DNA from: Halocafeteria seosinensis | Lineage: Eukaryota | Assembly: GCA_001687465.1 (NCBI GenBank) | Contig: LVLI01000117.1 | Location: forward strand, 62,001 to 120,066 | DNA length: 58,066 nt | Direction: 5' to 3' | Shown here: one piece after another, positions 10,201-58,066 of the stretch | Numbering within the stretch: the first letter of the stretch is position 1 | How the letters are laid out: the number at the start of each line of letters is the position of its first letter | The notes under the pieces: generated by a model | Told to the model about the DNA's origin: nothing | Database searches by the model: none | The model's input: the letters and a program-made list of their open reading frames with translations, nothing else | Translations under genes and position numbers: made by a program

Positions 10201-13200
10201 ATTGCCAGCGTTGCTGAACGCTATGCCAGGTGTCTAAAGTTTCGGACACAACAGTCAGGTTTTTGCTCCACCGCTGTACTTGGTCCATGAAATTGGCCAC
10301 AAAACGAGAGCCAGACATTGCCTGGAGCTGGAGAGTGTGATCTTCCAAGTCATTCTTCACTTCTTCGTCCGGGACAATAAGGTACGAGCGGAATTGTCCG
10401 TCTTTATGATACTCACTGAGAGTAAAATCAGTCGAGTGCCACTTGGTCTCAATCTTCCGGAGCTCCTTTTCGATCTTCATTTCTTGCATGGCCTCGTTTA
10501 CTATCTCTTCAATTTCTTCGCTATACTTGGACAGATTCATTTCAAAAAGCTTCTGCAACGTGAAGGTGTGGGGATTCATATTAAACTGTACACCCGTAGT
10601 CTCCATAAGTTTCTTCCAGTGTCGCTCCTTCATAGCTTCGTTCTTCAAACTCTGGATAAGGGGAAGTGAGTCTTTGAACGCATTGACTTCCGCATTGATT
10701 GAGTCGAAAAGTGACATGTCTTTGAGTTCCTTCGGCAGTTTCCTCATCTTTTCAACGATCGCTTCGACTCCTCTGTTGAGAGTGTTAATATCTAGGGCAC
10801 TCCATAGCATATTCGATTGACTTTCCGTGAATGCTTTTTGCTCGGAGTATACTTCATAGAGCTGATTGACCTTCTCAATATCATCGCGGACTTCAACCAG
10901 TGGCGGATACTTCGACCGCTCCAACCCAAACAGAAGCTGTGCATTGGTCAGATCATCGCGACGGCTTTCCATTTCTTGTAAACGACGTTTGTATTCTTGG
11001 AGTAGCTCAAGGCCTTCGTCAAGATTGATACTCGGCTGAGCAGGCCCACTAGAAAAGTAGCTCTGATGAAACTCCTCACATTCCTGCTTAAACTGTTCCA
11101 CATCTTGGACTGTGACATCTTTAAATTTCTCTTTCACGCGGACAAGTCTTGCATCCTTCGTTAGGGCAGCGTTCTGTAGCTTGTGTATATCCGTGTCGAT
11201 CCTATCTGCAGCATGGAGGTCATCATCATCCAAGTCGATGCGGTCTTGATGGCGTTTGAGTAGCCGATAGCGTTCCTGAATATCCATTGCCTCTAACTCC
11301 AGCTCCAGTTTCGACTCCCGTATTGTCTTAATAGAATTGAGAAGCTGCTTCAGCTCCGGCAGATCCTGTGGATCCACGTCGAGCTGCTCATGAGACGATT
11401 CAATCCTCTCATTAATCGCTTTCAATTTCTGAGATGCTATCACAGACAATACGCGACCGAACTCGGCCACGAGACTCTCGGCCTGATTCCTGCACGCAAC
11501 CGCCACAGGCTGGCAGTCCACCCATAAAAAGCCTATCAATTTTTGTGTTTGAGCCTCTCTAACTTTGTCGGCGAGCCGGGCAAACACGTCTAAACGAGCT
11601 TCAAAATAGTTTACCGGGGGGCACTTTTCAATCAGTTTGTCCATTTTTCCTGGAGGACGAGACTCCCAAAGACCGTACTCCTTGCCATAGTTTTCCCAAG
11701 CGGAGGTAAACTGATTGACATCTTTGACTACACTATACAATGCGTCCATTCTGAGAGTCATGTGATTTATAGCGGGGTTGTGCCGAATATCGCTATAGAA
11801 CGAAAAATCTGGAGCTGTTTGTCCTTCTTCGGTTGGCACCTCAGCCTCTATACACGTACCATCAATCCACCGCACAAACCTCTGCGCTGCCTTCCCCATA
11901 AACTTGTGAAGATTATAAATATGCTTCGCCACGCTTATCATTGGAGGGTGCATTGAGAAAATGTCATCTGATTGGTGGGTCACTTTGACACGTATCACAG
12001 GAGGAAACGCAGGCCATTCCACCGGTTCGAGTGAAGGATCTACAGGTGCTCCGGCAGCACGAGTGGCAGCAGCTTCGGTGGAAGTCGACATCGATCCCGG
12101 TTTCAATGGTATCTCAGTATTGGCACCTTGGCCGTGTTTCGTTCTAACATCGAAAGGTATATTCAGAATGCCTTGGAGCGCTCCTAGAGATGCCAAAATC
12201 ATCTGAGATATGGCGTTGTAGATTCGTCTTTCCCAATACTTATAAAACTCACTCATTTCTTTGGCAGCTCCCGTAGAAGAATGAGCAATAAATCCTTCGA
12301 TCTGGGACATTACAGGGCGGATGCTTCGGTACTTTGACACTAACTCCTCTAGTCTGCTATCAGCCTTCTGGGTTACATGCTCATAAAAGTCCGAAACCTC
12401 CATAGGCAGTATGGAAGGAGGAAAATCTTCAGCACCTATCAACACAGTTTGACTGATACTTTGAACCACGTCCTCCAGAATATCAGTAGACTTCCTCACC
12501 TGAGACAGCACATTTTCAAATTCGGTTAATGCTCTACTGACGTCATCAATATAAGCAATGATATGTAGACTGTTCCAGTTAAGAGGCGTAAACCCAGGGC
12601 GAACGGCGCTGCGCAGTTCAGCGAGGTGGTGCTGCAGTAATGAGGCCTCGACCGGCCTTAACTGGCCCAAGACAGAGTGATACCTTCGCAGCAGCGAGGA
12701 TAGCCTAGCTCGGTAATCGTGAAATTTGCCCTCCTGAAGCGCCACGTTCAAAGCAGACTCGGGAATATCGAATCCTAATCTGTCCAATAACTTACTCTCC
12801 CGGATGATTGTAAGTAATTCCGGATCAAAGTTCACAATAAATGGAGGACTAGGAAGGCACATTGCTTCATAATCTACACCAGGCCCCCGTTTTGCGTTGG
12901 CTGTTGCCGCGGCTGCAGCACCCGCGGCTAAAATGATACCCTCGCCAGCTTCAGCCAGCACTTCTTTGTCTTCCATGCGGGGATGGTCACCACTTTGACG
13001 ATTCCATGGATTTGCTTTCCCATCTGGTGACATGATATCTCCAGGCAGTAAGGGAGAAGGAAACAATTCCGGCCCTAGAACTGGTTGCTTCAACAAATCA
13101 GTTACTTGGGACTCCACTTGAAGCGCCCATCCAGCATAGTGCTGTTTGATGTAGCTATCAATGGTCTTCGCGAACTTCAGGTAGTCCTTCTTGAGTTCCT

Positions 13201-15967
13201 GCCCTTTTGAGCCCTCCAACAAACCAGGCATCGAGCGGAATTTCAAAACGGGTTTCTTCTGCCGCAAATACAGTGAGTGCGCCCAAGCGATAGCACCCGC
13301 TACAGGAGGGTAATTCTTATACACAGGAGGATTATCCTTGTTCTTCGAAAAGAGGTCAGCTGTCTGAGCTAACTCCTGTCGGGCTTGTTCAATGATATTG
13401 TCGTGCTTTCCCAGAAGCAACTCTTTAATTGACTGCCGCAGCTGCATGTGTTGAAACTTTTCTAAGAGATTAAACGCGCCTTCAGCACTTCGTAGGCGCG
13501 CAAACGCGCTATTAATGAACTGTCGAGTACTCTCTTCAATTTTTTCAACGTTTTCTTCAAATCGTTCCATTTGTTGGCGCCACTTCAATACTGCTTGCCT
13601 CGACGTGTCGTACATTTTAAAGTTCATTTTCGAGCTTCCAAGAGGACGTTTTAGGTTCTCCACTCGCTTCACAACTTCCCGAATTTGTTGCTGATCCGTC
13701 GTAAGGGCAGCCATTTCAGGCGCTTTAAAGAAACGTTCAAATTCATCGGTAGTTTGCACTACACGGGCAAGGTCGTCGAGTATAGAAACCATGTAGTCTG
13801 TTCTTCCAAACAACTTCTGTTTAGGAAATTCCCAACGCCTCTCGATTTGAGCATCTTCTATGCTTTGTCTCGCCTCCATATAGCTAGACTTCCATGTCTG
13901 GAGGACAGCTTTTGCCTCTTCCATCAGTTTCAATGCTTCATTTGAAGGCAGTCGGAGAACGCTCCGAACATTTACTTCATTAGACACCTTCTCTACAAGT
14001 TCTGCCTCTATTCCTTGCATCAAGGGATACATCTGATGATCAGTGTTATAGTGTCTAGACACGATCCAAACCATTTTCAAAGCAGTCATCATGCCCGGTA
14101 TAGTGTTGGTAATGGCATTTAGAGATCCCGACTGAAGCTGTTTGAAGTGACGCTCAACAGTTCCCAGAAATTTCACATTATCTCTCGCCTCTACAAACTG
14201 TCGAGAAAGCTCCTCCTTCTGGGTCTTAAACTGCTCAAGCTGGGGTTCCTCAGCGTATTCTAACGTCGCTACGATCTTATTTGCTTGAGGTGAAGTGACC
14301 TGCTCGTATACAGCAGAGAGTGTCGCATTCCGAGCCCGCCAATGCTCAATCTCACTCATCGGGCGCACGCTGCTTCGCTTCTCCGCAGCAGCATTCAGTT
14401 CTCGCAACACAGACGAGATAGTCTCAGTCCAGCCCAAGACGGTATCCAATATAGTGGCACGTAGCTGGGAATCCTCCGCAGCAGCCGCTGGATCTTCGAT
14501 CGTAACCTCCGGCATTTCCAGCTTGACGTCACTCTTAACTTGCTGCTTTGTGTGCTGGATATGTTTCGAAAACCTTTGAAACGAGCTCTTGAATTCACCA
14601 CGAACGGAGTCACCAACACTGCTGGCACCACTCTCGACTTCCGCCGGTTGAGGTATTTCAGGCTGATGCTGGGCCTGTTGCTGCGCAGTGTTGATGGTTC
14701 CTGTACCCCAGCCAGACGAAGCAGTGCCTCCAATACCCCGGCCGCCCACTGTGGAAGTACCTTTCCGACCACCAAACGCAGAGGCGGCACCTCCAAATGC
14801 GGAAGCTGCGCCAGATTTTCCTCCACCGCCCATAACGGATCCGGAAGCCAGTGATTGCCCATACGCAACGCTGCCTGCAGCACCGCCTCCACCGCCTGAG
14901 CCCACAGTACCCAGATCCTCGCTTTGTCGCTCCAGTCCTTCAGCTCCGCCAGCAGCGGCAGCTCGACTTGCAAATTGCGGTTGCAAAGAAGGAGCAAAAA
15001 CATCCCCAAGAAAAAACTGTAAACTGCTCAGTACATCGGCTGAAAGACATCCAAATTCGATCGCCTGAGAGATGTAATCTTCAAAGTCGGTACCCTCTGG
15101 GGCAACGATGGCACCATCAACCCCTTTAACCATGTACACGCCATCAAATTCCTCAGGTGGTTGATTCTCTTCGGACTTGTTCTGCCCGTCGGCAGTCGAA
15201 GAAGAGGCATCATCTCTTTCTTCATCTTCTTCGGCAGCCTCAATCTCCACATGACCTTTATTTTTGTCTTCGTTAGCAGCGAGTGTTTCAGGGAATTTGT
15301 TCATAGCCACGTGTAAAACCATCACATCCTCGACGACTGTTTCGACCCTAGTTACTTCGATTGTTTTGAATTTCTGTTCTTTTCGACTTTCCCCATCTTC
15401 TTCTCCCGAAGAGCCCTCATCTTCGTCAGAGTCTTTCCCATTTTCATCGCCGGGTCCACTTTGTGCCGGCTTCTTCATATCTTCTTTTTCCTGCTGCGCA
15501 TCTTCTGCATTGCGTTCATCAGAACCGGGTCTATTCTCCTTATCACCGTTGGCTTTCCCTTCTTCTTGATTTTCAGTGTTCTCCCTGTCCTCGTTTTCAT
15601 GCTGTGAACCCTCCTCGCTTGAGCCTCCTGATCCTTTTGAGGAAGGCGTAGCTGGAACCTGCTGCTCTTCAACAACCTCTCGTTGTATCTCTTTCGGCTT
15701 CGTTGTCGCGTGGAAGAACAATGATGTCTGACTGGGACACTCTTCACTAATGAACCGACGTACAGCTTCTCCATTTAACTCAGGATCTGAATCATCAGCG
15801 ACCATTTCTTCCCAGGCGTCGTCCTGGAACTCAAAGTACTCCTTTATCACATCCTTTATCCATTCCATGGGAGTCTGCGGTCCCTTGCTAACTTGCTGTG
15901 TCGGAGAGGGCTGCTCATCCCCTTCCTCTTGCCCATCATGCGATTCATCGTCCCTCGACGAATTCAT
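1211..15967 (-). CDS. DNAH10: Axonemal inner-arm dynein heavy chain, DNAH10 / I1(f) 1-alpha type, single exon, 4918 aa
   Basis: AAA1 GPAGTGKTETVKDLAK and CFDEFNRI; P-loops GPTGGGKS, GETGTAKS and GVGGSGKQS; coiled-coil stalk; MVWIVSRHYNTD and C-terminal HWVLQGV are typical of the DNAH10 clade. Confidence 0.92.
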   Translation of the reverse strand: MNSSRDDESHDGQEEGDEQPSPTQQVSKGPQTPMEWIKDVIKEYFEFQDDAWEEMVADDSDPELNGEAVRRFISEECPSQTSLFFHATTKPKEIQREVVEEQQVPATPSSKGSGGSSEEGSQHENEDRENTENQEEGKANGDKENRPGSDERNAEDAQQEKEDMKKPAQSGPGDENGKDSDEDEGSSGEEDGESRKEQKFKTIEVTRVETVVEDVMVLHVAMNKFPETLAANEDKNKGHVEIEAAEEDEERDDASSSTADGQNKSEENQPPEEFDGVYMVKGVDGAIVAPEGTDFEDYISQAIEFGCLSADVLSSLQFFLGDVFAPSLQPQFASRAAAAGGAEGLERQSEDLGTVGSGGGGGAAGSVAYGQSLASGSVMGGGGKSGAASAFGGAASAFGGRKGTSTVGGRGIGGTASSGWGTGTINTAQQQAQHQPEIPQPAEVESGASSVGDSVRGEFKSSFQRFSKHIQHTKQQVKSDVKLEMPEVTIEDPAAAAEDSQLRATILDTVLGWTETISSVLRELNAAAEKRSSVRPMSEIEHWRARNATLSAVYEQVTSPQANKIVATLEYAEEPQLEQFKTQKEELSRQFVEARDNVKFLGTVERHFKQLQSGSLNAITNTIPGMMTALKMVWIVSRHYNTDHQMYPLMQGIEAELVEKVSNEVNVRSVLRLPSNEALKLMEEAKAVLQTWKSSYMEARQSIEDAQIERRWEFPKQKLFGRTDYMVSILDDLARVVQTTDEFERFFKAPEMAALTTDQQQIREVVKRVENLKRPLGSSKMNFKMYDTSRQAVLKWRQQMERFEENVEKIEESTRQFINSAFARLRSAEGAFNLLEKFQHMQLRQSIKELLLGKHDNIIEQARQELAQTADLFSKNKDNPPVYKNYPPVAGAIAWAHSLYLRQKKPVLKFRSMPGLLEGSKGQELKKDYLKFAKTIDSYIKQHYAGWALQVESQVTDLLKQPVLGPELFPSPLLPGDIMSPDGKANPWNRQSGDHPRMEDKEVLAEAGEGIILAAGAAAAATANAKRGPGVDYEAMCLPSPPFIVNFDPELLTIIRESKLLDRLGFDIPESALNVALQEGKFHDYRARLSSLLRRYHSVLGQLRPVEASLLQHHLAELRSAVRPGFTPLNWNSLHIIAYIDDVSRALTEFENVLSQVRKSTDILEDVVQSISQTVLIGAEDFPPSILPMEVSDFYEHVTQKADSRLEELVSKYRSIRPVMSQIEGFIAHSSTGAAKEMSEFYKYWERRIYNAISQMILASLGALQGILNIPFDVRTKHGQGANTEIPLKPGSMSTSTEAAATRAAGAPVDPSLEPVEWPAFPPVIRVKVTHQSDDIFSMHPPMISVAKHIYNLHKFMGKAAQRFVRWIDGTCIEAEVPTEEGQTAPDFSFYSDIRHNPAINHMTLRMDALYSVVKDVNQFTSAWENYGKEYGLWESRPPGKMDKLIEKCPPVNYFEARLDVFARLADKVREAQTQKLIGFLWVDCQPVAVACRNQAESLVAEFGRVLSVIASQKLKAINERIESSHEQLDVDPQDLPELKQLLNSIKTIRESKLELELEAMDIQERYRLLKRHQDRIDLDDDDLHAADRIDTDIHKLQNAALTKDARLVRVKEKFKDVTVQDVEQFKQECEEFHQSYFSSGPAQPSINLDEGLELLQEYKRRLQEMESRRDDLTNAQLLFGLERSKYPPLVEVRDDIEKVNQLYEVYSEQKAFTESQSNMLWSALDINTLNRGVEAIVEKMRKLPKELKDMSLFDSINAEVNAFKDSLPLIQSLKNEAMKERHWKKLMETTGVQFNMNPHTFTLQKLFEMNLSKYSEEIEEIVNEAMQEMKIEKELRKIETKWHSTDFTLSEYHKDGQFRSYLIVPDEEVKNDLEDHTLQLQAMSGSRFVANFMDQVQRWSKNLTVVSETLDTWHSVQQRWQYLEGIFVGNEDIKQQLPDEAKKFGEIDKAFKGLMSTVSKNPNIVDACVSEGRQSLLEDLAERLDKCQKSLSEYLNSKRNSFPRFFFISDDELLAVLGSSEVTGIQEHLLKLFNNVKSLGFARGNSVINKLTSSEGEWFSTLDAAPVEGPVEEWMSGVEDEMQKSLHQITKKGVYEYAHMKRSEWVSKQLGMVTMVGSQIWWTWGTEDTFRRVAKGDKYAMKKFASKLTEQLMELVAVVREPLDEMTRIKINTLLIIDVHARDIIDQFVRDSILDAREFAWESQLRFYWDRDKDDIEIRQCTGKFGYGYEYMGLNGRLVITPLTDRCYMTLTQALTFKLGGSPAGPAGTGKTETVKDLAKNLALPCFVINCGEGLDYRAMAAIFSGLAQVGAWGCFDEFNRINIEVLSVVSAQLRSLQNALLYEKETVDIGMGQEIRIKQQVGIFITMNPGYAGRTELPANLKALFRPVTMVVPDLLQICEIMLFSEGFEYAKVLAKKMTTLYRLAKEQLSKQYHYDWGLRALKSVLVMAGSLKRQYSDMTEELVLMRSLRDSNMPKFVYEDVPLFHGLIEDLFPGLDCPRVGYPELKTALEEEFERNTMRHDDEKKFQLQVDKCIQLYETMLTRHTTMIVGPTGGGKSTVRNALQKASSPAFGKTVKTFTLNPKAITVNELYGIMDPETRDWQDGVLSKLFRECNRPLPKGKEDEVRWIVYDGDVDAVWVENMNSVMDDNKLLTLPNGERIQLVDHCKMLIEVFDLQYASPATISRCGMTYVDPKNLRYYPYYYRWLKLRTAERPTEHASLMELYEKYIPRCVEFVLEGELPEDGSNEDAQPPCSFAVQRTELNLVTQLCSMLDGLLVSDEEYTDFDLLEGYYVYAVIWSIGAVLQDDQRSRFEEFVKRTAEIALPENIYHNFYDGDMRKWRSWHEEVPEYEPPVPFEFNKILVPTADSVMYTALLKKMVNVSRPTIFVGETGTAKSVTIQNFLRELDQDSFAFLNMNFSSRTTSKDVQSNIEANVDKRSGKIFGPPVGKKLMIFIDDMNMPKIDIYGTQQPIALLKFLLEHGSMYDREKDLELKRFQDLMFVAAMGPPSGGRNSVDPRFLSLFSMFNLTAPTDDVLQHIYGSILERFAGKFPEPVQEACEKLTPCTLELYKEIVERLPPTPNKFHYIFNLRDLGRVYEGLCQATTDKFTSSVEFVRLWRNEMERVFCDRLISDSDREFVTGLISEQIEAHFSEDSEEILKDPLVFGDFRLAARRIVDDAEDPQLYEDLGDYDSVKPILDEVLEEYNHQKREMQLVLFKMAIEHLTRIYRIIRLKRGNALLVGVGGSGKQSLTKLATFLAGYRLFQITLTRRYTERDFREELKELYKMLGEGPVVFLFTDAHVVEEGFLELINNMLTTGMVPALYDSDEKDNLSNSVMQEVKDAGLYPTKENCWNFYVNKCRDNLHLVLAMSPSGDTLRRRCRNFPGLVSNTVIDWFFPWPSEALNKVATFFLRNEDLNTDTKESIIEHMVHVHETVVQSSEQFAKELRRHNYVTPKNYLDFIWNYQKQMSDNSNRLQTRIGRLEGGLSKLKEAQETVDTMSGELKVKKADVDQKTVEVEKMIEEIETRQKTADKQAEEAQQKAAELEKMNEEIKEQSAQANESLEAAIPALEAAAAALENLDSKDINEIKAFAQPPEGVKNACLCVLYLKPSGREDDQGGWKACKSMMADARFLERLKNYDKDRITDKQMKKVNSLMKSANMTYEGMKSVSRAGAGLFQWVTALSHYYDVAKNVKPLRDRVKELETQQTKAQKELTDINNKLEKLREEISQLNKDYKKNSAELQNLQESAALMEKRLTSASKLISGLGSEEERWTGDITKLQDQHKRLIGDCLIAAGFLSYLGAFTFDYRKSLIYNDWLKSIANKQLPHTEEFDIEKFMVTDATVQTWAAQGLPADTHSVMNGILTTQASRFPLCIDPQQQAVKWIKNKEGDNLIVSTFLDSGFMRQMELAIQYGKPFLFEAVDEELDPMIDPILEQNTYMEGQQRMIKLGDKDIEWDANFRLFMTSKLSNPHYSPEIMGKTMIINYSVTLQGLQDQLLNVVVSNERPDLEKQFNELVTEMSENMQMLEKLEEELLRNLNSSTGNLLDNEELISTLENAKSKSVEIKGKLEESTVTKADIDKARTIYTSAARRGSILFFAVTGLANIMRMYEISLASFLSVFERSLKLSARDANVEKRLGYIIQETTEQIYDFTCTGIFERHKLMFSLQMTTMIMEGDNELNRDELDFFLKGDVSVGAPETEKPVDWISDKGWKDLMKLKTMTTSDYWPQLIDHIQNNLDVWKEWYDKEAPEQEPLPAGFSDMLNNFQHLLVFRCFRADRVYNGVKRFVMHVMGERFVQPPVLNYHRIFNQSTALSPVVFILSPGADPQSDIQSLGIEKGFPPPSKLKFLALGQGQEKKAEELLHLGSQRGYWILLQNCHLLLSWLQNLERFIQTLKEPHPDFRLWLTTEPTDKFPLGILQQSLKVVTEPPDGLKLNMRALYSRLTQADLEECPHPAYRPLVYVLCFLHAVLLERRKYGKLGMNVNYDFNESDFRVSRQLMSTYLLKAWENNDEMIPWGSLKYLIGDAMYGGRVSDDYDRRVLNTYLDEYMGDFLFDENQPFYFSRADFDYDLPPWGSIDTYIEKVETLPLVSGPGVYGLHPNAEINYFTNAAKDLWRNLIDLQPRSSTAAGGVSREEHIGNSVADLLEQVPEPEDTHNIRRRLVPEGSAPTPTQVVLFQELERWNFLVTSMKRSLLDLQRALAGEIGMSDQLEEIGDAIFDGRIPRLWKSLAPDTQKPLGSWMQHFRSRHLQYQSWIDHGEPTVIWLSGLHIPESYLTALVQSTCRRRNWPLDKSTLYTEVTHYRTSEDVPGPSEDGCYVSGIYLEGASWDFERNVLREQRPKVLIEELPIVQIIPIEASKLKLHGTFQTPVYVTQQRRNAMGVGLVFDAFLNTEHHESHWVLQGVAMCLNTDE

Positions 15968-16362
15968 CGTTATGGACGAGAAAATGCTCTGGTAGAGTTC
16001 CTAACGGTTAAGTCCGATAGTGGCCCCCCCAACGTGGGCTTTCAGCTCCCGCTTACGCAATCGCGGCAACCGGGAGCAGCGATACCACTGTGTGCACACT
16101 TGCAATAGCTTAAGTGTGACCTTGTCAACATGCGGTTTGAGCATTTACTAACGTCGGTATCGCATATAACGAGTCTACTGCGAGATTTTCAAACTCGAGA
16201 TTCAGAGCGAAGGAAAGATTGTCTGGATGGGAACAAGAAAAGATTGCTGTGTCGCGTGACTTCACAAGCAGCTTTTGGCGACCCAGACAAGAAATAGATT
16301 AGATTGAGCGTGTTGATATCGGTAGCGTAGGGACATGACCTCCAAAAGAGTAGTATTGTATT

Positions 16363-16547: not shown

Positions 16548-18206
16548 ATGCATTTGGATAGCAAGAGCTGGATGAATCTCCTGAAGCGCTATGCATCGCA
16601 ATGGGCGATTGCCAATCGACGCTATGTCGTGTTTGGCGCTGTGATGCTCGGAAGCTCCTTGATGAATAACCTCTTCGTGACATACTACATCATGTTTTTT
16701 ACCCAGATTGAGGTTTTGGATTCATCGTGGTTTTACATTGGGCAAATAGTCTTTGCCATTTGGAATGCTATCAACGACCCTTTGTTTGGATGGCTCTCAG
16801 ACAACGCCGTGACAGCTCATTCCAGAACTGTCCAAAGACTAAGAACCGTCCGTATAGGAGGATACGTGTGGGTAGTGTCCTTTGTTTTGCTATGGTACCC
16901 TTGGTCGACGCCGTTTGGCTTTCAGTCGCCTCGACTGAGGAGTCTTCTAGCTGGTCTGCATTTTATCACTTCCCTCATCCTCTACGACGGGGGTCTGTCG
17001 TACGTTGAGGTAAATCACGGTGCTTTATTGACGGAAATAGCAAGTACATCTCAAGAACGGGCCCGATTTAATATGTGGTCTGCCATATGGGCTGGTATCG
17101 GATCATTATCTTCGCTGTTCGCTCACATAAAGTGGGATAAAGACGACTTGTCGCACTTCCAATTTGTTGTTTGGATCGTTGCACTGATCTCAGTAGTTAG
17201 TTTCGAAGTGTCCACAAGACAACTGGAAGGATGGAGCAAGCATTACTCTCCCGCCAAAAGTGATACCAAGCAAGTTAGTTTAGAACATCGGCGAAAGCAT
17301 ATGAGTAAGCGGGACAAAGAAGGGAGCTCCAAAAGCTCCGCCACGTTTTCTATGTTCATTTCCCAACTCATGAACCATCGCAACTTCATGATATTTGCCG
17401 CTCTCTCAGCAATTCAGGTAAGTATCCAAAACAAAATGCTTTCTTGATGACTTCATTATGCTTCAACCTTAGCTCCTGCACAGGCGTTTGATTGTACATT
17501 TGAGAAGAATTTTTTTGCCGCCTTCATGGATAGTTTAGCCGGTTCCCGCGTCAGCCCAGAATTGCGTGGAAGCGTCATATCTGCATCTTTTTTGTTACCT
17601 CATGCTTGTACGGTGATCGCTACTCCTGCAATTCGTAGATGGGGAATGTACGATACTATGCAGGGTTTGCTCATTGTGAGGATTGGATTCGTCGTGGCTG
17701 CAATGGCTACGACTGTGGCCATGAATTATGTACTTCCGTCACTGGTCTGGATTTCTTATGGAATTTGTGGTTTTATGCTGATCAATAGGGTGGCGTCGGA
17801 AGCAACTTGCAGATTGTTTCCGTTGATTCTTTCTGACCTTATTGATGAAGACAGTGTCATCAATAACCGGTCCAAGGGACTTTCCTCGTCAATCATCGGA
17901 ACGGCATCGTTTACGTCTAAAATATCGCAGTCGCTGGCCCCCATGGTTGGCTTTTACGTGACCCCAATCGGATCCCTATCCTCGAGCTTGCCACCAGAAG
18001 AGTATGGTGTCGAATCTGCTAAAAGGGTTGTACCCACTACAACTGGACTGTGGTGGATCCTCTTAGTAATACCTGTTCTTTGCATTTTGCTGGAGCTAAT
18101 GTTATGGAAAATGTATACACTTAGGGGCAAGTACCTGAAAAGGATCCAGAAGACTCTCTCCAAACAGGAAGAGACTATATATGAGCCATCAGAACAAACA
18201 GTATGA
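16548..18206 (+). CDS. MFSD13A: MFS transporter, MFSD13A/TMEM180 family (intron 17418-17483)
   Basis: IWNAINDPLFGWLSD MFS_2-type motif and many hydrophobic helices. Splicing GTAAGT..CACAG joins to QAFDCTFEKNFF, similar to the TMEM180 QVFHCHFNSNFF segment. Confidence 0.8.
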
Positions 18207-18297
18207 AGGCTGTTACATCTGAATTCAGGGTTTGGAACGACCTCATCAGAACAAACGGTATGAAGAATGTTCATCTGAATTCAGGATTTGGAACCAC
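18187..18297 (+). repeat. Imperfect ~57-bp tandem duplication spanning the transporter stop codon
   Basis: catcagaacaaacagtatgaaggctgttacatctgaattcagggtttggaac at 18187 vs catcagaacaaacggtatgaagaatgttcatctgaattcaggatttggaac at 18244. Confidence 0.9.
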
Positions 18298-18692
18298 CGC
18301 CTGAAGCTGAGACCGTTGAGGCAAACAGAAGCTTAACCAGCGACGATTCTTAAATTAACGTGTATTTTGTATTAGGAGTATTGACATTATTGAGAGCGTG
18401 ACGAATGTCTTAAGCGCACCGGCAATAGCTACGCGGTGCTTATAATAATTAGTGCCACTTCTTGGTCTCGCCTTCTTTGGACGTTAGATATGGTGGTACG
18501 CCGGCAGCATCACGCATACGGATCAATTAAGCTAAGATAGGAAGCGCGAAATTTTTATCCTATATATCAAGGCACAGATGCGGTGGTTGGTGTGATCATG
18601 CACTTCCCGTTAGTTGTCAGTTCGCACAAGGCTCTACTCCTGGCATCTCAATGCATGCCGTTGCCATATTACCATAAGTTGGTACGCTTCCG

Positions 18693-49375: not shown

Positions 49376-52300
49376 CTATTCGGCAGCATAGGAAAAACGA
49401 GGGAAGTTCCACCGCCCACTACCCTTCTCTTGTTCAGCTTGCTGTTCGGCAAATTCATCGAAGAATCCCAGAAAGTCCTCTTCAGTGATTCCGAGCTGTT
49501 CTGTCGCTACGCTTGAGGCCACGCTGTCACGCGCTTCTTGACGCGTAAACGTGTCTTCAAAATTCGCGATGTCATTCTCTCCGCGCATGTTAGGACGGAA
49601 AGATGGTTTATATTTCTTATCGTATACATTGGCCCAATCGACGTTCTTAAAGAATGCATGCTTCTTTATACGCTCAACGCCTCCAGCGTCTGATGAGCCT
49701 AACCGTTTGCTAGGCTCCCTTGCCAGCAGACCTTCTAGTAGGGATTTCGCGTTCTTGGATAACAGATGCAGTGTTTTTGGTTGAATTGAAGGGTTCACCA
49801 TATTCCGAAGAGTATCTAGATGAGACGATCCTCGGAAAGGATGCTTTCCCGTAAGCATTTCGGACATCATTATTCCCAGCGACCACCAATCAACGGCAGA
49901 GGAATGGCCGTGCTGAAGTAGCACCTCAGGCGCCATGTACTGCTCTGTCCCGCAGAAGCTGTGCGTCCTCTCATCAGCTGCTTTAGACTGTTCATTCAAT
50001 GAAGTGACTTCTGGTCGTTTGTTTTCTTTTCCAACACGGGACAGTCCGAAGTCGGTTAGCTTCACGTGGCCTTCTCCATCCAATAAGACATTCTCCGGTT
50101 TGAGATCACGATAGACCACGCCGTTTTTATGCAGGTGCTCAAGAGCAAGTACAAGCTCAGCCATGTAAAGCTTACACCGTTCCTCCTCAATTGTACCATA
50201 ACGCGAAAGCAGAGTAAAGAAATCTCCACCACCTACAAACTCTAGCACTAAATACAGTTTAGTAGGCGTTTGAAACGTGTACCGGAGGTCGACGATGAAT
50301 GGATGCTTCACAATGGCTAAGATATCCCTCTCAAGCAACGTTCTGAACACCTGCTTCCGACGAATTACCTCCTTCTTCTTCAATGCTTTCATTGCATAGG
50401 TACGGCCGCTATGTACGTGACGAACTTGTAACACTTTTCCGTAACCGCCACGACCCAAAACAGCGAGAATTTGGAAATCATCTAAAGTCAGTCGCTTATC
50501 GCCAGAGGAAGCGCGGATATTATCGGCATCGATCTCTTCGTTCCTTTCAGAATCTGCGATTCCGCCCACCTTCACGTCTTCCTCTGCCGCTTCCGGAGAA
50601 GATTCGTGTTCATCTTGTTCTTCTCTGCCCTCGAACTCTCTAACGGACATATTACGCCTGATGTAGCCTTGCCCAGGTACTGAAGAAGGCGATCCCATCT
50701 CATTATCCGAAGCTGCTGGGGAATCGGCAAGACCCTGTTGTCGCCGTTTCTTTACCGCTATTATATCATCCACAAGTTTCAAGAAGGACTCCATAGGTGC
50801 GATTGTTTGTCCATCTACGATTGCGTTTCCCAACCACATTGGCGTTTGCCCATTTAAGGACATCTGAGACAGTAGCGACACACGCGTAGCCACTACCGGA
50901 GACTCAGGATAACTTTTGGGGTTATCCCCGTTTAACTCGGCTGCGGTGATGGGCGTCAGCAACGATCCTGCCACGAATACACAGGCGCGTACATGGTTCT
51001 TCCTTGGAGGAATTAACCTGTGTTGAACAGATACCTCCCAAACTCCTATGCTGCCATCCTCATACCGTGTGCAATCTTGGAACACGGTTGTATCCCTCCA
51101 GGAAGAGAACGCCGACACGGGTTTCATCTTCCGATAGAGAATTCTGGGAGGCGGGAGTATGACATCATCGTTTACATGTGCAGCCGCTTCGTTCATACAG
51201 GTAACGCAGCTCTTTTCACCAGGATTTTCGTCGAGGGTAGCAGATTGAGAGGTCACCGCTTCAGTATCTGAAGTACTATTTCGGCCACCCTCGCTGGAAG
51301 TATATTCGCTAGTCGGATTACCGTACTCTGGTGCATTGACTAATTTACCAAACCATTTATTCAGATGCGGATGCTTATGAACGAACTTGGCAAACTTCTC
51401 ATGAAGTAGTTCCTCCTCTTTGTAGCGAATACTCGACCCCTCTAAAGGTGAAGGAAATTGGTCTTCTCCACTATTTCGCTCTCCAACACTCCTACGATCC
51501 CCTGTCCGGCTGGGCGAGGCGTCAAGTGGGCCATCAAAGACGTTGCTTTCTTCTCGAGTACGGGGTGCAGGCGACGGGAGGTCTTCATCATCGGTTCTCA
51601 GCCATTCGTATGTTTCAATCACTTTCCCCTTGGCACAAGAGGGATCCCATAGGGCTCTACAGCCTAAGTTCTCATCAACAAAATGGGATTCCTCTCCATG
51701 GGACTCAATGTAGTCCTTACTGGAGGCACTTCCACAGAGAAATGGGGCCAGGATATAAGGGGGAACCTGGACGGTTGCCGACGTCAAGTAAGCTGGATAC
51801 ATTGTAAGCTCTGACTCGTTTTTCAATCGATATACTTTCATTCGATCACCAGAACGCCTCTTCGATAACAACCACTTTGAACTCTCCGACGCTAAGTTCT
51901 TGAAGCGATCCCTTAGTTTCAGCAGCTCTTGGCGGATCTCATACGCGAGTTGCTCGCTCGGAGGCTTTTGCCTCACACACGCATTCAGCGATCCGGATAA
52001 TAAAGCGAATTTAATATGAATTATTTCGGCAGATTCCACTCTCATGAGCAGAGAATTATGAATAATGTGGGGCTGGAATCTCCAAGTCAATTTATATTGC
52101 CCCAAACTGCGCCCATTAGTTGCTCCGAGCTTCGGCACTGTCCAGAACTGTTTCGCGTGCTTGTCATTGTCCGCAACGAATCTGCAAAATGCAGGTTTAT
52201 CACAAAATGTCGCCGCGCTCCCACCGATAACTCTCAAGAGATTCTGCTTCTCGAGGGCAGAACCCAGTTCAACGGCTCCTTCGCGGGTGGTAGCATATCC

Positions 52301-52569
52301 TTGTTCCACAATCCAAGTGACGGCATCTTCCGCCAGGAAGACGGTCCGGTGGAGCCTCAGTCGATAGAACCTGAAGACGATAGAACAGACGGTACTTCAG
52401 TCAAGCAGATAGGACAACAATTACAAACCAAGGAACAGTACCTGTCTCGTATATCTACTCCAACACGCATAACTCTTGCAATACGCCGGCATTCCTCGGG
52501 AGTAAAATTGCCTTTGTTGCTGGGGGTAATGGGAGCCGTATTGCATGTTTTTGGCTGATGTGACGTCAT
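49376..52569 (-). CDS. AGC-family Ser/Thr kinase (S6K/SGK/RSK-like) with N-terminal DEP and START-like domains (intron 52441-52371)
   Basis: DEP: VDIRDRFYRLRLHRTVFLAEDAVTWIV..TREGAVELGSAL. START-like: RALWDP, SWRDTTVF, SVQHRLIPPRKNHVRA. Kinase: GRGGYGKV, YRDLKPEN, DFG, SFCGTEQYMAPE. Hydrophobic motif FPRFSY. Confidence 0.85.
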
Positions 52570-53182: not shown

Positions 53183-54227
53183 ATGAGTGTCAAAAAAGCC
53201 ATGTATGGTGAGTACATGATTCCTAAGATAGTACAAAGATATTGGCTATTATCGACCGTTTTCATTCATCATTGAATGAACGTTGCTTCGCGGACGCAGT
53301 ACTATTAGTGTGCACGACCGTAGCACTGGCTTGCCATGTAGGGGCTCTAGTGAACAAGCGATGGATCGTCACTGGACATGTGTATTCTACTGAGGATGAT
53401 TACTATGGCCCAAGTGATGACGTAACTTACGATATTGGTTTGTGGAAGTTATGCAAAGATTTCCCTGGCAAGAGCGAGAGCAGGTGCGAGGACAGTAAGT
53501 TTTCAGCTATCGAGGCTGTACTATACTTGTATTATTCCCTTAAGTATCTTATTCACCAGCTTTTAAGGAATTGCGACCTCATCTTCGGATATACCTTATT
53601 GCAATCCGAGGCTTGGAAATTGTAGCCCTCATGCTTTCCGTGGTTGGCTTGTTTCTTATCCGCAAAGCAATCAAAATCCCCGAAGTGGGAATTTGGAGAT
53701 TGCTGACGTGTATTTGCACTTTTCTGCATTGTAAGTTGACTGAGTTATACAGTATTTGCTCCACAGGTAAAGAGAGAGAGAAAGTTCCCACCATATACAT
53801 TGCAGTGTTGATGAATGCGACTCTATTGGGGATCTTCGGTATGCTTTATGGGTATGTTCCTCCAACGCTACATCTACAGGCGGGTAAGTAGATAAAGCGC
53901 AGTTTAGACGTTTGCTATACAAGATACGTGCCACACTGTCTATATTCCGCAGGGTACGGTATCCTGGCTCCTGTTTTGGGTACCACACTTATCGCCATCG
54001 CATTCTTGGTCTCCGTATTTACATTCGGCCCTGGTTTGAATGAATGCATCAGATTAGCAGATGAGATGCACCAACACAGTGGGAATACTGAAAGTTCTCT
54101 TAATTTTCACGACATCGAAAAAGGGAATCCAACTCCGTCCTATTCACCCGCTGGATACCACGGTACAGCATACGCCCCGCAAGGCTCGGCATCATACCTT
54201 CAGTATCAGCCCCCCAGGGAATACTAA
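53183..54227 (+). CDS. Claudin/PMP22/EMP-like tetraspan membrane protein (multi-exon; first intron 53208-53299)
   Basis: TM1 followed by W...GLWKLC...C signature, further hydrophobic helices, YGILAPVLG in the last TM and a Pro/Tyr-rich tail. Confidence 0.6.
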
Positions 54228-54469
54228 TCAATTCACCAGTAGCTCAATTGCCACCTCGTACGCATCATACAAGTTCTTTCTCACAATTTGGTATAAAGTT
54301 CAGTCAACAATGAGATTTAACGAATGTAAGTCTCATTGACTACCTGCTCGGTTTTTATGCCACCCAAAACCCTCTATACAAAAGTAGAGCTTATGTAGGC
54401 ACCGGGTAATATCCTTTCATTTGTTTCACCGGAAATTCTCGTCCCTTAGTGCTGGGGAACTAACAAGAC

Positions 54470-54810
54470 AGTAGTCAATGGAGTAGATTCCTATATAACA
54501 CCAGATGGAAACCTCACCCTGCCTCACCCGACCGCATTACCCGACGATATACCCCCTACAACGTCACCTATCTGTTTCACCAAAATACCGCTATACGACC
54601 GCATATTCCGACGAAATAGGCAGACGAACTACGCAAAGTGATTCCCCACCTCAACCGAACCCGACCGCATAACCCGACGATATACCCACTAGAGAACCTC
54701 ACCCGAATTCCACAAATTGACCCCTACACGACCGTGTCTCACGGGGGTTCGACAAACGAAATAGCCATGCCTACGTGTCAAGCGACGGCGTCAAGTTGAC
54801 TTGTGAAGTG
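54470..54810 (+). repeat. Left terminal inverted repeat (341 bp)
   Basis: Hand alignment to the reverse complement of 56628-56973 shows 3 substitutions and one 5-bp indel. Confidence 0.95.
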
Positions 54811-55351
54811 ACGACGACTGTCTTCAAGGCATAACTTCAACCTTGTTCGGATTAGTTGAGTTCGTCTGGATTGAAAGGACGAGTCACTGCTTGTCGGCTT
54901 TGGCATGGTTTTCTGAAAATTTTCAGTGATTGTACTGGAAGAAAGACAACAGAGTGTTTATAAGTGAATGTTTCTGATTCAGATGTTGTGGTTTTCTATT
55001 TTTGTTTGGATTGGAAAAGGTGTGTATAGACCGGAGAACATGTCCTGATAGAGGTGTTTTTGTTTCCCTTCACCGTCCCCTGAATGCCAACCTGTTGTCC
55101 GGCTAAGTTCTTTTCTTTGGCAATTGTCCCCGTCCTATTTGCGAAGCCCGTGATAAGATCCAAAGGAATCATGATAATCACTGAAGCACAGTGATTATAT
55201 TTTGGCATAGCATAACGGAAAAGATTGATTTATTTGGGTGCATAGGGGTCGTCTTGTGAACTGAAGGATCTTTCTGAGCCAGTCGTGAACCTTGCCCCGA
55301 GTTTGCTCTAATTATGAACAGGGTTGGTTATGTATTGAATTATCATAAGAA

Positions 55352-55573
55352 TCACTGAAGCGAAGGGAATGCGTAAATGGGTGAAATAAGGGGAAGTGAT
55401 CCATTTGAGTGTTTATAGAGGGTGGTCTTGTGAACTGGTTGTTCAGTCACATGCCATTTCATTTGTCTTTTCGTCTTAATATTCCGAACATTCCCATGAT
55501 CGGATACTTCATAGTTGCTATAATCGGGAATTGACCGCCATGTCTCAACATATTGTGTTTGTGGTGGTTGCAT
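55352..55573 (-). pseudogene. NUMOD4-motif ORF, probably a truncated NUMOD4-HNH endonuclease
   Basis: ETWRSIPDYSNYEVSDHGNVRN matches the NUMOD4 pattern (E.W+.I.....Y.VSn.G.VR); no HNH domain follows. Confidence 0.7.
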
Positions 55574-55582
55574 GATTGGTGA

Positions 55583-55978
55583 CTACTCGGTTTGATCATT
55601 TTTTCTTTTGTTAGAAATTGGTTTCTCCTTGGATTCCTTGGCGTTAAAACTCTTGATTAGTTTGTTATAGCGTTTCTGTGCTCGGTCATTGACGTCCAAA
55701 TCAAACGACAGGCTGTTGGCAACTTCCTCTGCTTTAGAGGCAATGGTATGACCGGTGTCAGACAGGTATTCGGCAATTGTTCTTTTTTCCAACTCGACAA
55801 TGGCAACGTCTAATCGTTGAATACACTCCTCCGCAAAGTCGTTGTGGTTCTCGTTGGTATAGAGATCGTTGATGATATCCACCAACTGTTCGGCGTTGCT
55901 ATGTTCCGCAATATCACAGAAATCTCTGTGAGACACTTTGAGATATTCCGACACCTCTTGTCCCTTTTTCTTCGGCAT
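55583..55978 (-). CDS. Element-borne hypothetical protein, 131 aa, helical/acidic with basic NLS-like ends
   Basis: ATG-initiated, intronless ORF inside the TIRs; MPKKK start and KRK near the end. Confidence 0.65.
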   Translation of the reverse strand: MPKKKGQEVSEYLKVSHRDFCDIAEHSNAEQLVDIINDLYTNENHNDFAEECIQRLDVAIVELEKRTIAEYLSDTGHTIASKAEEVANSLSFDLDVNDRAQKRYNKLIKSFNAKESKEKPISNKRKNDQTE

Positions 55979-56034
55979 ATACCATGTTCACGGTTTTACC
56001 TTTAAGCGGATTCAAAGTCAAAAAATGAAAATGA

Positions 56035-56547
56035 TTAACAATCCAACAAACTGTCAAACCCTTTCATGAATATTTGCTTCATAAGATATGATACCTTCCA
56101 AACAATTGTCTTTTTCCTGTATTGATCATGAATATCACATAAATTTATTCTTGACTGACAAAAGTCTTCTAATTCATCATCTGCCATTGTCTCGACTTCG
56201 TAATGCTCATAATACAAAGCCCAATCATCATCCGTAAATTTGATATCAACCAATCCTTTTTTGCTCTCTTTGCCCAATTGAATATCACTTATGACTGGGG
56301 GATCACATCCTTTGTAAATCTTGATTGATTTTATTCTAAACCGATTGCGATATAACCAAGACTGTTTTGGTGTTGGTATTTTTACATCAACATCCTCTTC
56401 TTCATTATCTGAATCCATTGTATTGCGAACCATTTCACGGCATTCATCTTTTAACCGTTCGTTCAACGCAAATTCTAGATTCTTGAACAGAATAATTTCA
56501 CGTTGTTGGTTTGTCAATTGAGTAATATCCTTGTTTTCAAACGGCAT
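56035..56547 (-). CDS. Element-borne hypothetical protein, 170 aa
   Basis: ATG-initiated, intronless ORF in AT-rich DNA, starting 80 bp inside the right TIR; no domain recognised. Confidence 0.7.
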   Translation of the reverse strand: MPFENKDITQLTNQQREIILFKNLEFALNERLKDECREMVRNTMDSDNEEEDVDVKIPTPKQSWLYRNRFRIKSIKIYKGCDPPVISDIQLGKESKKGLVDIKFTDDDWALYYEHYEVETMADDELEDFCQSRINLCDIHDQYRKKTIVWKVSYLMKQIFMKGFDSLLDC

Positions 56548-56627
56548 CGTTATGGTTATACTTCATAACGGTTCAATCATTTTTCTGGACTGGGCAATTT
56601 GAACTCGCCCAAGTCAACTTGACACAC

Positions 56628-56973
56628 CACTTCACAAGTCAACTTGACACCGTCGCTTGACACGTAGGCATGGCTATTTCGTTTGTCGAACCCCCGTGAG
56701 ACACGGTCGTGTAGGGGTCAATTTGTGGAATTCGGGTGAGGTTCTCTAGTGGGTATATCGTCGGGTTATGCGGTCGGGTTCGGTTGAGGTGGGGAATCAC
56801 TTTGCGTAGTTCGTCTGCCTATTTCGTCGGAATACGGTATGCGGTCGTATAGCGGTATTTTGGTGAAACAGATAGGTGACGTTGTAGGGGGTATATCGTC
56901 GGGTTATGCGGTCGGGTGAGGCAGGGTGAGGTTTCCATCTGGTGTTATGTAGGAATCTACTCCATTGACTACT
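56628..56973 (-). repeat. Right terminal inverted repeat (346 bp)
   Basis: Reverse complement of 54470-54810. Confidence 0.95.
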
Positions 56974-58066
56974 CAAGACACTCTCAGTTGGCCCACTGAG
57001 TTGGGTAGCAAAAGCTGGAAACCACACAGCCCCTAGTTGAGGAACGGGGGACGAGCCAATGGTAATTGGTTTGACATTAAAACAATTTGGTAGAAAACTC
57101 AAATTATCGGTAGATTTTTAAGGGAGGAGAATACCAAGCACGCCGTGACAGTGTTTCAACTGCATACCGCCTGTCCTGGTAAAACCAACTCTTCAGGCAA
57201 CTGCTGCAAATGAGGAAATGACTACAAGTGTAAGCAAGTGCAAACTGGTTCATGTGTCATGATCATTTTCCTGCCTGTTCAACATTTCATGGAGTCTATA
57301 TACAGTATTTACAGGGGTGCACCCAACACAGCAGGTTCCTTGGAAGTTCCAAGTTGGAACCAAGCCGTTGTGCCGCAGCCTGTGCGGGGAATGTATTTTT
57401 TGTATTCACAGTACCGGTATTGCGAAAGTCTGAAACCACTACTGCTACTACTGAAACCTGTGAAACGTTTCAAAATCTTGAGAATGTAATGTAAGGATTT
57501 ACATTCACGCATGCCAAGTACATGGTAACACTGCGCCTACGCCTAGATCTTTCCCATGAAACGTGTTTACGGGGTCATCCGGAGAATGGTGTGGAGACGG
57601 ACCGATCAATGAACTGGTACACCACGCGGCGAAGAAGGTAACGCCGCTCAAAGGATACGCAGCTAATACTGCGAAATTTGAGAACTACAGTACATACACG
57701 TGGATCAGATGCCGGGTGCACGGAGATTATGCGGAACTTTCGGAAAGTGATGATGGCCTACAGTATATGTCACGACGACGATGATATATGTATGACGCTG
57801 ATGCACCACAACGTGGGGATTCCGGGTTTATCACTCGGGCACGTCACTGCGTCACTGACCTCACACACACACAAATGTGACAGATAGCCCACCGGCCGGG
57901 AAGATGACCGCATCCTCAACGAGGAGCGGTATGCGCCCGTGTTAAGCAGCGACGGGCCCGCTGTTCCTGCAGCCTTGCTGACATGCGCCGTGAGGGAACA
58001 CAGCACTGGTTAAGCTCAGGAGGCATCGGGGGAGGAGCCATGCCTGCGCCCACAATGTCAGAGGTA

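What the first reader, a model, noticed from the sequence alone, without database searches (positions are those of the whole stretch)
54464..56979. Mini-Polinton/Maverick: a 2.5-kb cargo-carrying element with viral-type ends but no replication, integration or capsid genes
Seen in the sequence: ~341/346-bp TIRs differing by only 3 substitutions and one 5-bp indel, termini 5'-AGTAGT...ACTACT-3', and a perfect 6-bp TSD (CAAGAC). Established knowledge: 6-bp TSDs, AG...CT termini with short terminal tandem repeats and long TIRs characterise Polintons/Mavericks (protein-primed PolB, retroviral-like integrase), which are normally about 15-20 kb. Here only ~1.8 kb lies between the TIRs, with no pPolB, integrase, ATPase, protease or capsid. 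Inference: a fairly recent insertion that is either a satellite mobilised in trans by a helper Polinton-like virus, or a full element that was internally deleted in place. Non-autonomous Polintons are known, but this family and its cargo appear uncharacterised.
Basis: partly seen in the sequence, partly recalled or inferred. Interest (0 to 1): 0.88.

Follow-up and report, generated by a model that had tools for sequence, protein, structure and literature searches.

The report
Gutted remnant of a Polinton-type virus
A 2.5-kb insertion with the exact end signature of Polinton-type integrating DNA viruses sits at a site that also exists empty; it is likely a single, internally deleted leftover of a longer virus-like element with many relatives in the same genome, a kind of remnant already reported in other flagellates.

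Summary
Observation confirmed: a 2,504-bp element (54470-56973), TIRs of 341/346 bp, (AGT)2//(ACT)2 ends, 6-bp TSD CAAGAC, no core viral genes. New here: one DNA-like run holds the empty site at about half the flank depth, so this is a real, polymorphic insertion. The same run holds many diverged relatives of the TIRs and of every interior block. The interior is not captured cargo but a patchwork of family pieces: two intact orphan genes (170 and 131 aa, with signs of purifying selection), a NUMOD4-HNH gene cut at about 55436 (three other contigs continue it in frame), two 174-bp non-coding units, and a probable gene stub cut at the left TIR. Sequence identical to this copy's 131-aa gene sits at one-allele depth, so no amplified mini-family was seen. 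Best reading: an internally deleted copy of a longer Polinton/PLV/virophage-type element, most likely shortened in place; insertion after shortening with a borrowed integrase remains open. The parent (polymerase, integrase, capsid) could not be seen: no genome is held. TIR- and TSD-keeping fragments are already described in two bicosoecid flagellates. Side lead: RNA-like runs cover the 174-bp units.

The parts
54464..54469 (+). Left target-site duplication, CAAGAC
   Evidence: empty site with a single copy in run X2
54470..54810 (+). Left TIR, 341 bp, starts (AGT)2, 51% GC, internal sub-repeats (33-nt core at spacings 67 and 66)
54811..54906 (-). Probable first 32 codons of a gene (frame C, ATG at 54906) that runs into the left TIR and stops there; inferred deletion junction 2 at 54810/54811
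   Evidence: a depth-271 contig matches 54850-55153 with 6 differences and leaves at 54850 into a diverged, frame-keeping homologue with no listed joint to the TIR (loose end read by hand)
55168..55437 (.). Two 174-bp-spaced non-coding units with two conserved boxes (20 and 18 nt); 10-bp hairpin in unit 1; the second unit is cut at its second box
   Evidence: one contig goes back 174 letters (a further unit) and up to 8 variant contigs cover it; RNA-like contigs cover it; no Rfam or tRNA match
55436..55439 (.). Deletion junction 1, with 3-4 letters shared by the unit and the NUMOD4 gene
   Evidence: 3 contigs leave the window sequence at 55436 and run on for 255 or more letters; identical RNA-like contigs start at 55410
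55436..55573 (-). 5' stub (46 codons) of a NUMOD4-HNH endonuclease gene
   Evidence: Pfam NUMOD4 E 2.2e-08, profile positions 1-35 of 49; PHROG HNH families E 6.8e-08
55583..55978 (-). ORF B, 131 aa, intact, orphan, predicted mostly helical at low confidence
   Evidence: identical contig at depth 52 and diverged relatives (24 of 198 and 29 of 189 letters differ) in X2
56035..56547 (-). ORF A, 170 aa, intact; one unnamed homologue (P0002, 38% identity)
   Evidence: depth-382 contig with 5 differences in 196 letters
56628..56973 (-). Right TIR, 346 bp, ends (ACT)2
   Evidence: one contig leaves at 56628 into other sequence, marking this as a natural inner TIR edge
56974..56979 (+). Right target-site duplication, CAAGAC

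Best explanation
This is a real insertion with Polinton-type ends at a site that also exists empty, and it is likely a single dead remnant of a longer Polinton/PLV/virophage-type element that probably lost its middle after it had inserted here. Shown: the ends, the TSD, the empty site, many diverged relatives of the TIRs and interior blocks in the same DNA-like run, and a break in the NUMOD4-HNH gene at about 55436. Inferred: (1) a retrovirus-type (rve) integrase of a full-length element made the 6-bp duplication; (2) the middle was then lost, leaving the genes next to the right end (A, B, the start of NUMOD4-HNH) joined through 3-4 shared letters to an internal block (174-bp units plus the start of gene C), which is joined to the left TIR; (3) one event such as excision followed by incomplete gap repair with template switching between family members (model recalled from Ac/Ds and P elements) would give both junctions, the patchwork divergence and the slightly unequal TIRs. 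It encodes nothing recognisable for copying, cutting or packaging; its intact ends could still be read by a relative's integrase.
For: End motif and TSD match Mavericks; rve integrases give 6-bp TSDs (PMC12220804 passages). Empty site at depth 58 against 152/125; new mavirus insertions are likewise on one allele (10.1101/068312 passages). Three contigs leave at 55436; their loose end, read by hand in the NUMOD4 frame, gives CGYKNIQVGL, which fits the missing GY..V.L end of the motif (motif end recalled). The contig identical to this copy's ORF B has depth 52, the one-allele level, while variant contigs over ORF A and the C block reach 382 and 271. All four frames lie on one strand without introns, at low GC, and HNH nucleases are patchy accessory genes of such viruses. 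Selection on the family's genes: 11 of 23 listed substitutions in A, B and NUMOD4 are synonymous against about 25-27% expected (P 0.015 at 25%, 0.055 at 30%; 6 of 29 listed rows, next to indels in one contig, were left out), and two loose ends in ORF B keep 6 of 9 and 3 of 3 residues mostly through changed codons (by hand).
Against: No polymerase, integrase or capsid gene was seen linked to these TIRs: no genome is held and contigs could be seen only as 30-letter loose ends. Two junctions are needed, and in-place loss cannot be told from loss before insertion with these data. The flank contigs (535 and 627 letters) show no difference from the window although about 10 allelic differences would be expected if the TIRs had drifted apart at this site: a weak hint that the element came in already aged, weak because contigs drop variants. 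Junction 2 is covered by no listed X2 contig (the depth of bin 54816-54942 is explained by one contig that starts at 54850). The identical RNA-like contigs have only 26-27 letters on the unit side of junction 1, under the tool's 31-letter rule. Depth is not a copy number by the tool's own note, the tables were cut (64 loose ends and 327 pieces not shown; 19 and 89), and all four runs are of one study, one of them possibly the window's source.
Confidence: 0.5

Rival explanations
1. The element was shortened first (in a replicating genome or at another chromosomal site) and then inserted here as a 2.5-kb unit by an integrase supplied in trans; it is a rare, mobile-competent defective genome, not an amplified family.
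For: Perfect TSD and intact ends; flank contigs without differences beside TIRs that differ at 4 places; two junctions and patchwork divergence; the same idea is offered for TIR- and TSD-keeping fragments in bioRxiv 10.64898/2026.07.28.741278 and for truncated EMALEs in PMC8547959.
Against: No second copy with this interior seen (identical ORF B contig at one-allele depth); internal deletion in place also keeps TIRs and TSD; protein-primed copying would be expected to even out the two TIRs (recalled model).
Confidence: 0.25
2. The 2.5-kb form is an assembly artefact: a longer element at this site was collapsed or pieced together from several family members.
For: No listed contig spans the element or junction 2; such loci mis-assemble from short reads (PMC10120064 passages; 10.1101/068312 passages).
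Against: Identical RNA-like contigs in 3 of 4 runs run from 55410 across junction 1; the identical ORF B contig has the same depth level as the empty allele (52 against 58); the two TIRs differ, which a collapse would tend to erase; the window has no N.
Confidence: 0.1
3. It is one member of a true satellite family of 2.5-kb elements that is copied, and perhaps packaged, by a helper Polinton-like virus and is kept for its two genes or its RNA.
For: Every interior block has multi-copy relatives (29 of 30 bins covered); ORFs A and B are intact; identical RNA-like contigs cover ORF B and the units.
Against: The relatives leave this copy's path at 55436, 54850 and 56628; most listed contigs differ from this copy; the kept pieces include one or two broken genes; RNA-like depth over ORF A is 0-51 and the listed differences there are variant letters.
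Confidence: 0.07
4. The ends belong to a cut-and-paste DNA transposon of another superfamily (MULE-like or IS3EU/GingerRoot-like) that picked up viral fragments.
For: No integrase seen; MULEs often insert into such viruses in a bicosoecid; IS3EU and GingerRoot also make 6-bp TSDs (PMC10045372 passages).
Against: IS3EU/GingerRoot ends are TA..TA or TG..CA, not (AGT)2//(ACT)2; the end motif plus 6-bp TSD is the Maverick signature; the interior is intronless, one-stranded, low-GC and HNH-bearing.
Confidence: 0.06

Closest known systems
Fragmented endogenous virophages and PLVs of Halocafeteria seosinensis (bioRxiv 10.64898/2026.07.28.741278; parts 1-4 of 5 of the text read; supplements and figures not seen)
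   Same: 18 virophage and 12 PLV fragments lack most core genes; some keep TIRs and TSDs, read by the authors as decay or as dependence on complete copies; HNH nucleases are patchy accessory genes; elements are lower in GC than the host; TIRs average 485 bp (PLV) and 808 bp (virophage).
   Different: Those were found through structural genes and GC dips; sizes and end sequences are in a table I could not see, so whether one is as small as 2.5 kb or has these ends is unknown. This copy has no long terminal palindrome, unlike some of their subtypes. I did not try to establish the window's host, so no claim is made that it is or is not one of their elements.
Truncated EMALEs of Cafeteria burkhardae (PMC8547959; passages and section 10 read)
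   Same: 3 of 33 resolved endogenous virophages are truncated yet TIR-flanked; insertions carry TSDs.
   Different: EMALE TSDs are mostly 3-5 bp; those elements were assignable to virophage types by sequence, while this one has no assignable gene and no sequence match in the collections searched.
Polintons/Mavericks (PMC8097293 passages; 10.1101/2023.08.22.554363 passages)
   Same: 5'-(AGT)2//(ACT)2-3' ends, perfect 6-bp TSD, TIRs within 100-1,500 bp; 96% of vertebrate copies are defective.
   Different: 13-25 kb with pPolB, rve integrase, ATPase, protease and capsid genes; none is present here.
Internally deleted non-autonomous DNA transposons such as Ds or KP elements (recalled, from no call)
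   Same: Both ends kept, middle lost, short shared letters at the junctions, movable in trans in principle.
   Different: The parent here appears to be a virus-like element, and movement in trans is not shown.

Membership tests
Polinton/Maverick | 6-bp target-site duplication | tested here: met
   CAAGAC, exactly 6 letters; empty site with one copy
Polinton/Maverick | (AGT)2//(ACT)2 or (AG)3//(CT)3 end motif | tested here: met
Polinton/Maverick | TIRs of 100-1,500 bp | tested here: met
   341/346 bp; range
Polinton/Maverick | Length 13-25 kb with pPolB and rve integrase | tested here: not met
   2,504 bp; no such family in 9 frames (Pfam) or 4 frames (PHROGs)
Polinton/Maverick | Same TIRs bound a full element with pPolB, rve and capsid elsewhere in the genome | not testable with these tools
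   no genome held; relatives visible only as 30-letter loose ends
Endogenous PLV or virophage | Major and minor capsid, packaging ATPase (protease in virophages) | tested here: not met
   absent from this copy; parent not testable
Endogenous PLV or virophage | TIRs of several hundred bp, 5-6-bp TSD, GC below the host, accessory HNH nuclease | tested here: met
   features (typical, not exclusive)
Virophage/PLV subtypes with terminal palindromes | Long palindrome at the TIR tip | tested here: not met
   longest perfect arms 5 bp in 56560-56973; first 131 letters fold no better than shuffles, z +1.27
Non-autonomous satellite or MITE-like family | Several near-identical copies of the same interior at different target sites | tested here: inconclusive
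   identical ORF B contig at one-allele depth and relatives leaving at the junctions argue against, but contigs show presence, not absence, and tables were cut
IS3EU/GingerRoot | 6-bp TSD with TA..TA or TG..CA ends | tested here: not met
   ends are AG..CT
MULE | Mutator transposase, and mostly 9-bp TSD (length recalled; one search gives 4-10 bp for the wider group) | tested here: inconclusive
   no transposase in the element; TSD is 6 bp; parent not visible

The most novel reading that the evidence does not exclude
A Polinton-type defective-interfering genome: the smallest viable pair of ends plus two orphan genes, integrated by a helper's integrase after shortening, whose family also carries an abundant, probably polyadenylated non-coding RNA array (174-bp units with fixed boxes) made while the viral genes stay near silent. 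Such minis fall below the 6-kb floor of at least one PLV survey and could be a common, overlooked layer of satellites of virophage-like viruses.
Probability: 0.15. Interest if true: 0.7.

Novelty: new member of a known kind. Interest (0 to 1): 0.3.

Why it matters
As a remnant it is ordinary: one more decayed copy in a genome with many related virus-like elements. It still has some use. It is a clean test of whether Polinton-type ends alone suffice for integration in trans, which two papers suggest but do not show. At 2.5 kb it lies below the 6-80-kb TIR spacing filter of one large PLV survey (PMC12220804 passages), so such minis may be under-counted. Its TIR is a probe for the parent family. 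The RNA-covered 174-bp units and the two orphan proteins are uncharacterised parts of that family.

Tried and rejected
Whole-genome search: no genome held. TIR start motif in viral contigs: 0 matches. TIR sub-repeat in metagenome contigs: 1 match, L001, only 24 letters alike, treated as chance. Unit box in viral contigs: 1 match, L003, 19 letters only, 62% GC, treated as chance. ORF A: 0 of 13 candidates, none in viral contigs, 1 hit among 1.84 billion representatives; the two-sequence profile found only P0002 among 213 candidates and no convincing PDB hit (1 at E 0.16); P0002 has no name, no Pfam family and no viral locus. ORF B: only itself among 5 candidates, none in viral contigs. These word searches covered only lengths near the query's, so fused forms were not sought. 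NUMOD4 frame: 1 phage locus, L002, 33% identity, a generic match. Single-sequence folds were too poor to search with (pLDDT 34.6 and 48.2), so no fold search was run. The protein atlas gave no answer. Rfam: 1 match at E 0.39, far below its cut-off; no tRNA; sliding folds of 54850-55570 showed nothing strong (best z -2.6 of 26 windows); the bacterial promoter scan is not meaningful here. A coding reading of the 174-bp units was rejected: stops in all six frames; a third unit upstream scored at shuffle level (52 against 51.7). The run finder lists no holder on record as RNA; the RNA-like label is my inference from splicing. Literature searches (listings only, except the papers named) showed no paper devoted to 2-3-kb Polinton-type minis; Kapitonov and Jurka 2006 is not held, so 'non-autonomous Polintons are known' rests on recall.
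Full report
1. Observation. The element spans 54470-56973 (2,504 bp). Its TIRs (54470-54810 and 56628-56973) differ by 3 substitutions and a 5-bp indel, it begins AGTAGT and ends ACTACT, and exactly six letters (CAAGAC) repeat on both sides. The TIRs hold internal sub-repeats but no long palindrome. The interior is 1,817 bp at 39% GC; the window is 46.8%. The window reads as a gene-dense eukaryote with short GT-AG introns and a 4,929-aa frame that looks like a dynein heavy chain (recognised by eye), so the host is probably a flagellated protist (inference; its identity was not sought). The insertion lies between host genes: the left neighbour's frame ends at 54227, and RNA-like cover resumes near 57483.

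2. The site is polymorphic. Four runs of one study hold part of the stretch; their kind is not on record. X2 covers 30 of 30 bins without splicing, so it behaves as DNA; X1, X3 and X4 skip a 69-letter GT-AG intron at about 53884-53952 and leave intergenic bins empty, so they behave as RNA (X1 and X3 are one sample). X2 has a contig joining 54463 to 56974, the empty site with one CAAGAC, at depth 58, while the flank contigs have 152 and 125. This fits one filled and one empty allele, or a mixed culture. The joint's short side is 23 letters, so it carries the tool's caution, but it falls on the TSD exactly.

3. It belongs to a larger family. In X2, summed depth reaches 3,442 over the TIR, and contigs with other letters cover nearly all of the interior (29 of 30 bins; 95 records laid, 15 of them 99% alike or more). 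Depth is no copy number, but the variant contigs are direct evidence of relatives: up to 8 at one place. TIR relatives leave at several inner positions (54710, 54767, 56628, 56654), variants lack 44 or 217 letters, and an X4 loose end shows another terminus with a different flank before AGTAGTCAAT.

4. Anatomy of the interior. Four frames lie on the minus strand: A (170 aa), B (131 aa), a NUMOD4 stub and frame C. The stub matches Pfam NUMOD4 over positions 1-35 of 49 (E 2.2e-08) and PHROG HNH families. Three X2 contigs leave the window sequence at 55436 and run on for at least 255 letters; read by hand in frame, their consensus gives CGYKNIQVGL, the expected rest of the motif. So other copies continue this gene and this copy is cut, joined through 3-4 shared letters to the second of two 174-bp units. 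Another contig goes back 174 letters, so a longer array exists. At the left, a depth-271 contig matches 54850-55153 at 98% and then leaves into a more diverged version of frame C (18 of 27 letters alike with one 3-letter gap, by hand) with no listed joint to the TIR; in this copy frame C enters the TIR after 32 codons. That second junction is inferred and weaker. A and B look like real family genes: A has one homologue at 38% identity (E 2.7e-09); 11 of 23 listed substitutions in A, B and NUMOD4 are synonymous against 25-27% expected (6 of 29 rows beside indels left out; rows are the tools' best-supported subset); ORF B loose ends keep residues through changed codons. Their functions stay unassigned.

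5. One copy, not a family of minis. The contig identical to this copy over 55676-55988 has depth 52, close to the empty allele's 58, while the deeper contigs differ from it. An amplified, recent mini-family would give a multiple. Older, diverged minis are not excluded, since the tables were cut (19 loose ends and 89 pieces not shown).

6. RNA. Contigs identical to the window cover 55410-56010 (X1), 55410-55804 (X3), 55410-55840 (X4) and about 55211-55380 (all three), so this copy's joined sequence appears in RNA-like data; only 26-27 letters lie on the unit side of junction 1, under the tool's bridging rule. Contigs cannot show strand or level. One X4 contig ends in eight untemplated A on the plus strand at 55840, a weak hint that the RNA runs antisense to ORF B. 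Summed depth over 54943-55450 is 1,290-6,810 in X1 and X3 and 197-2,780 in X4, with many variants, against 0-51 over most of ORF A; the tool warns against ranking by such depth, so this is a lead only. No Rfam or tRNA match.

7. Mechanism. Shown: ends, TSD, empty site, relatives, the NUMOD4 break. Inferred: an rve integrase made the insertion (6-bp TSDs go with rve in PLVs; end motif as in Mavericks), and the middle was lost. I put loss in place first (0.5) because a single incomplete repair with template switching, a model recalled from plant and fly transposons, explains both junctions, the patchwork and the single copy. Loss before insertion (0.25) is favoured by one weak sign: no differences in 1,162 flank letters where about 10 would be expected if the TIRs had drifted here, but contigs hide variants. 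Assembly artefact (0.1), satellite family (0.07) and another transposon class (0.06) follow.

8. Comparison. It works like an internally deleted, non-autonomous derivative of a Polinton-type element. It is not a Polinton, PLV or virophage by gene content, and which of the three its parent is cannot be told. The kind is in print: fragments without core genes that keep TIRs and TSDs (bioRxiv 10.64898/2026.07.28.741278, parts 1-4 of 5 read; its supplement may list comparable elements and could not be seen) and truncated TIR-flanked EMALEs (PMC8547959, passages and section 10). Passages only were read of PMC8097293, PMC12220804, PMC10120064, PMC10045372, PMC5718144, 10.1101/068312, 10.1101/2023.08.22.554363, 10.1101/2025.02.07.637071 and 10.1101/2025.10.09.676808.

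9. Verdict. Observation confirmed; interpretation partly supported; new member of a known kind; interest 0.3. The small size, the open question of movement in trans and the RNA-covered units are what remain worth following.

Noticed in passing
window 54943-55450: Non-coding 174-bp units with two fixed boxes are covered by many RNA-like contigs in several variants; a variant of unit 1 (one letter out at 55185, one in behind 55188) would keep the hairpin. Possible virus-associated non-coding RNA; no Rfam match.
   Followed up: partly
window 55840: An X4 contig ends in eight untemplated A on the plus strand, antisense to ORF B.
   Followed up: no
window 56607-56650: The inner edge of the right TIR carries two copies of a short palindrome (GTCAACTTGAC) 25 letters apart; the left end has one, and contigs in X2 and X4 skip 44 letters here.
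   Followed up: partly
window 56628: One X2 contig leaves the inner TIR edge into other sequence that starts with an ATG one letter in (by hand): perhaps the first gene at the other end of a fuller relative.
   Followed up: no
window 54968-55048: A 26-codon hydrophobic plus-strand frame at the start of the RNA-covered block; a variant loose end at 55022 stops it earlier, so it is probably not conserved.
   Followed up: partly
window 49376-52396 (-): Protein kinase with DEP and weak START domains in one frame.
   Followed up: partly
window 1211-16000 (-): 4,929-aa uninterrupted frame that looks like a dynein heavy chain (by eye).
   Followed up: no
window 53227-54227 (+): Spliced host gene with hydrophobic stretches, claudin-like by eye, just left of the insertion; no Pfam match in three frames.
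   Followed up: partly
window 18187-18298: 56-bp tandem duplication, 89% match, at the end of a transporter-like frame.
   Followed up: no
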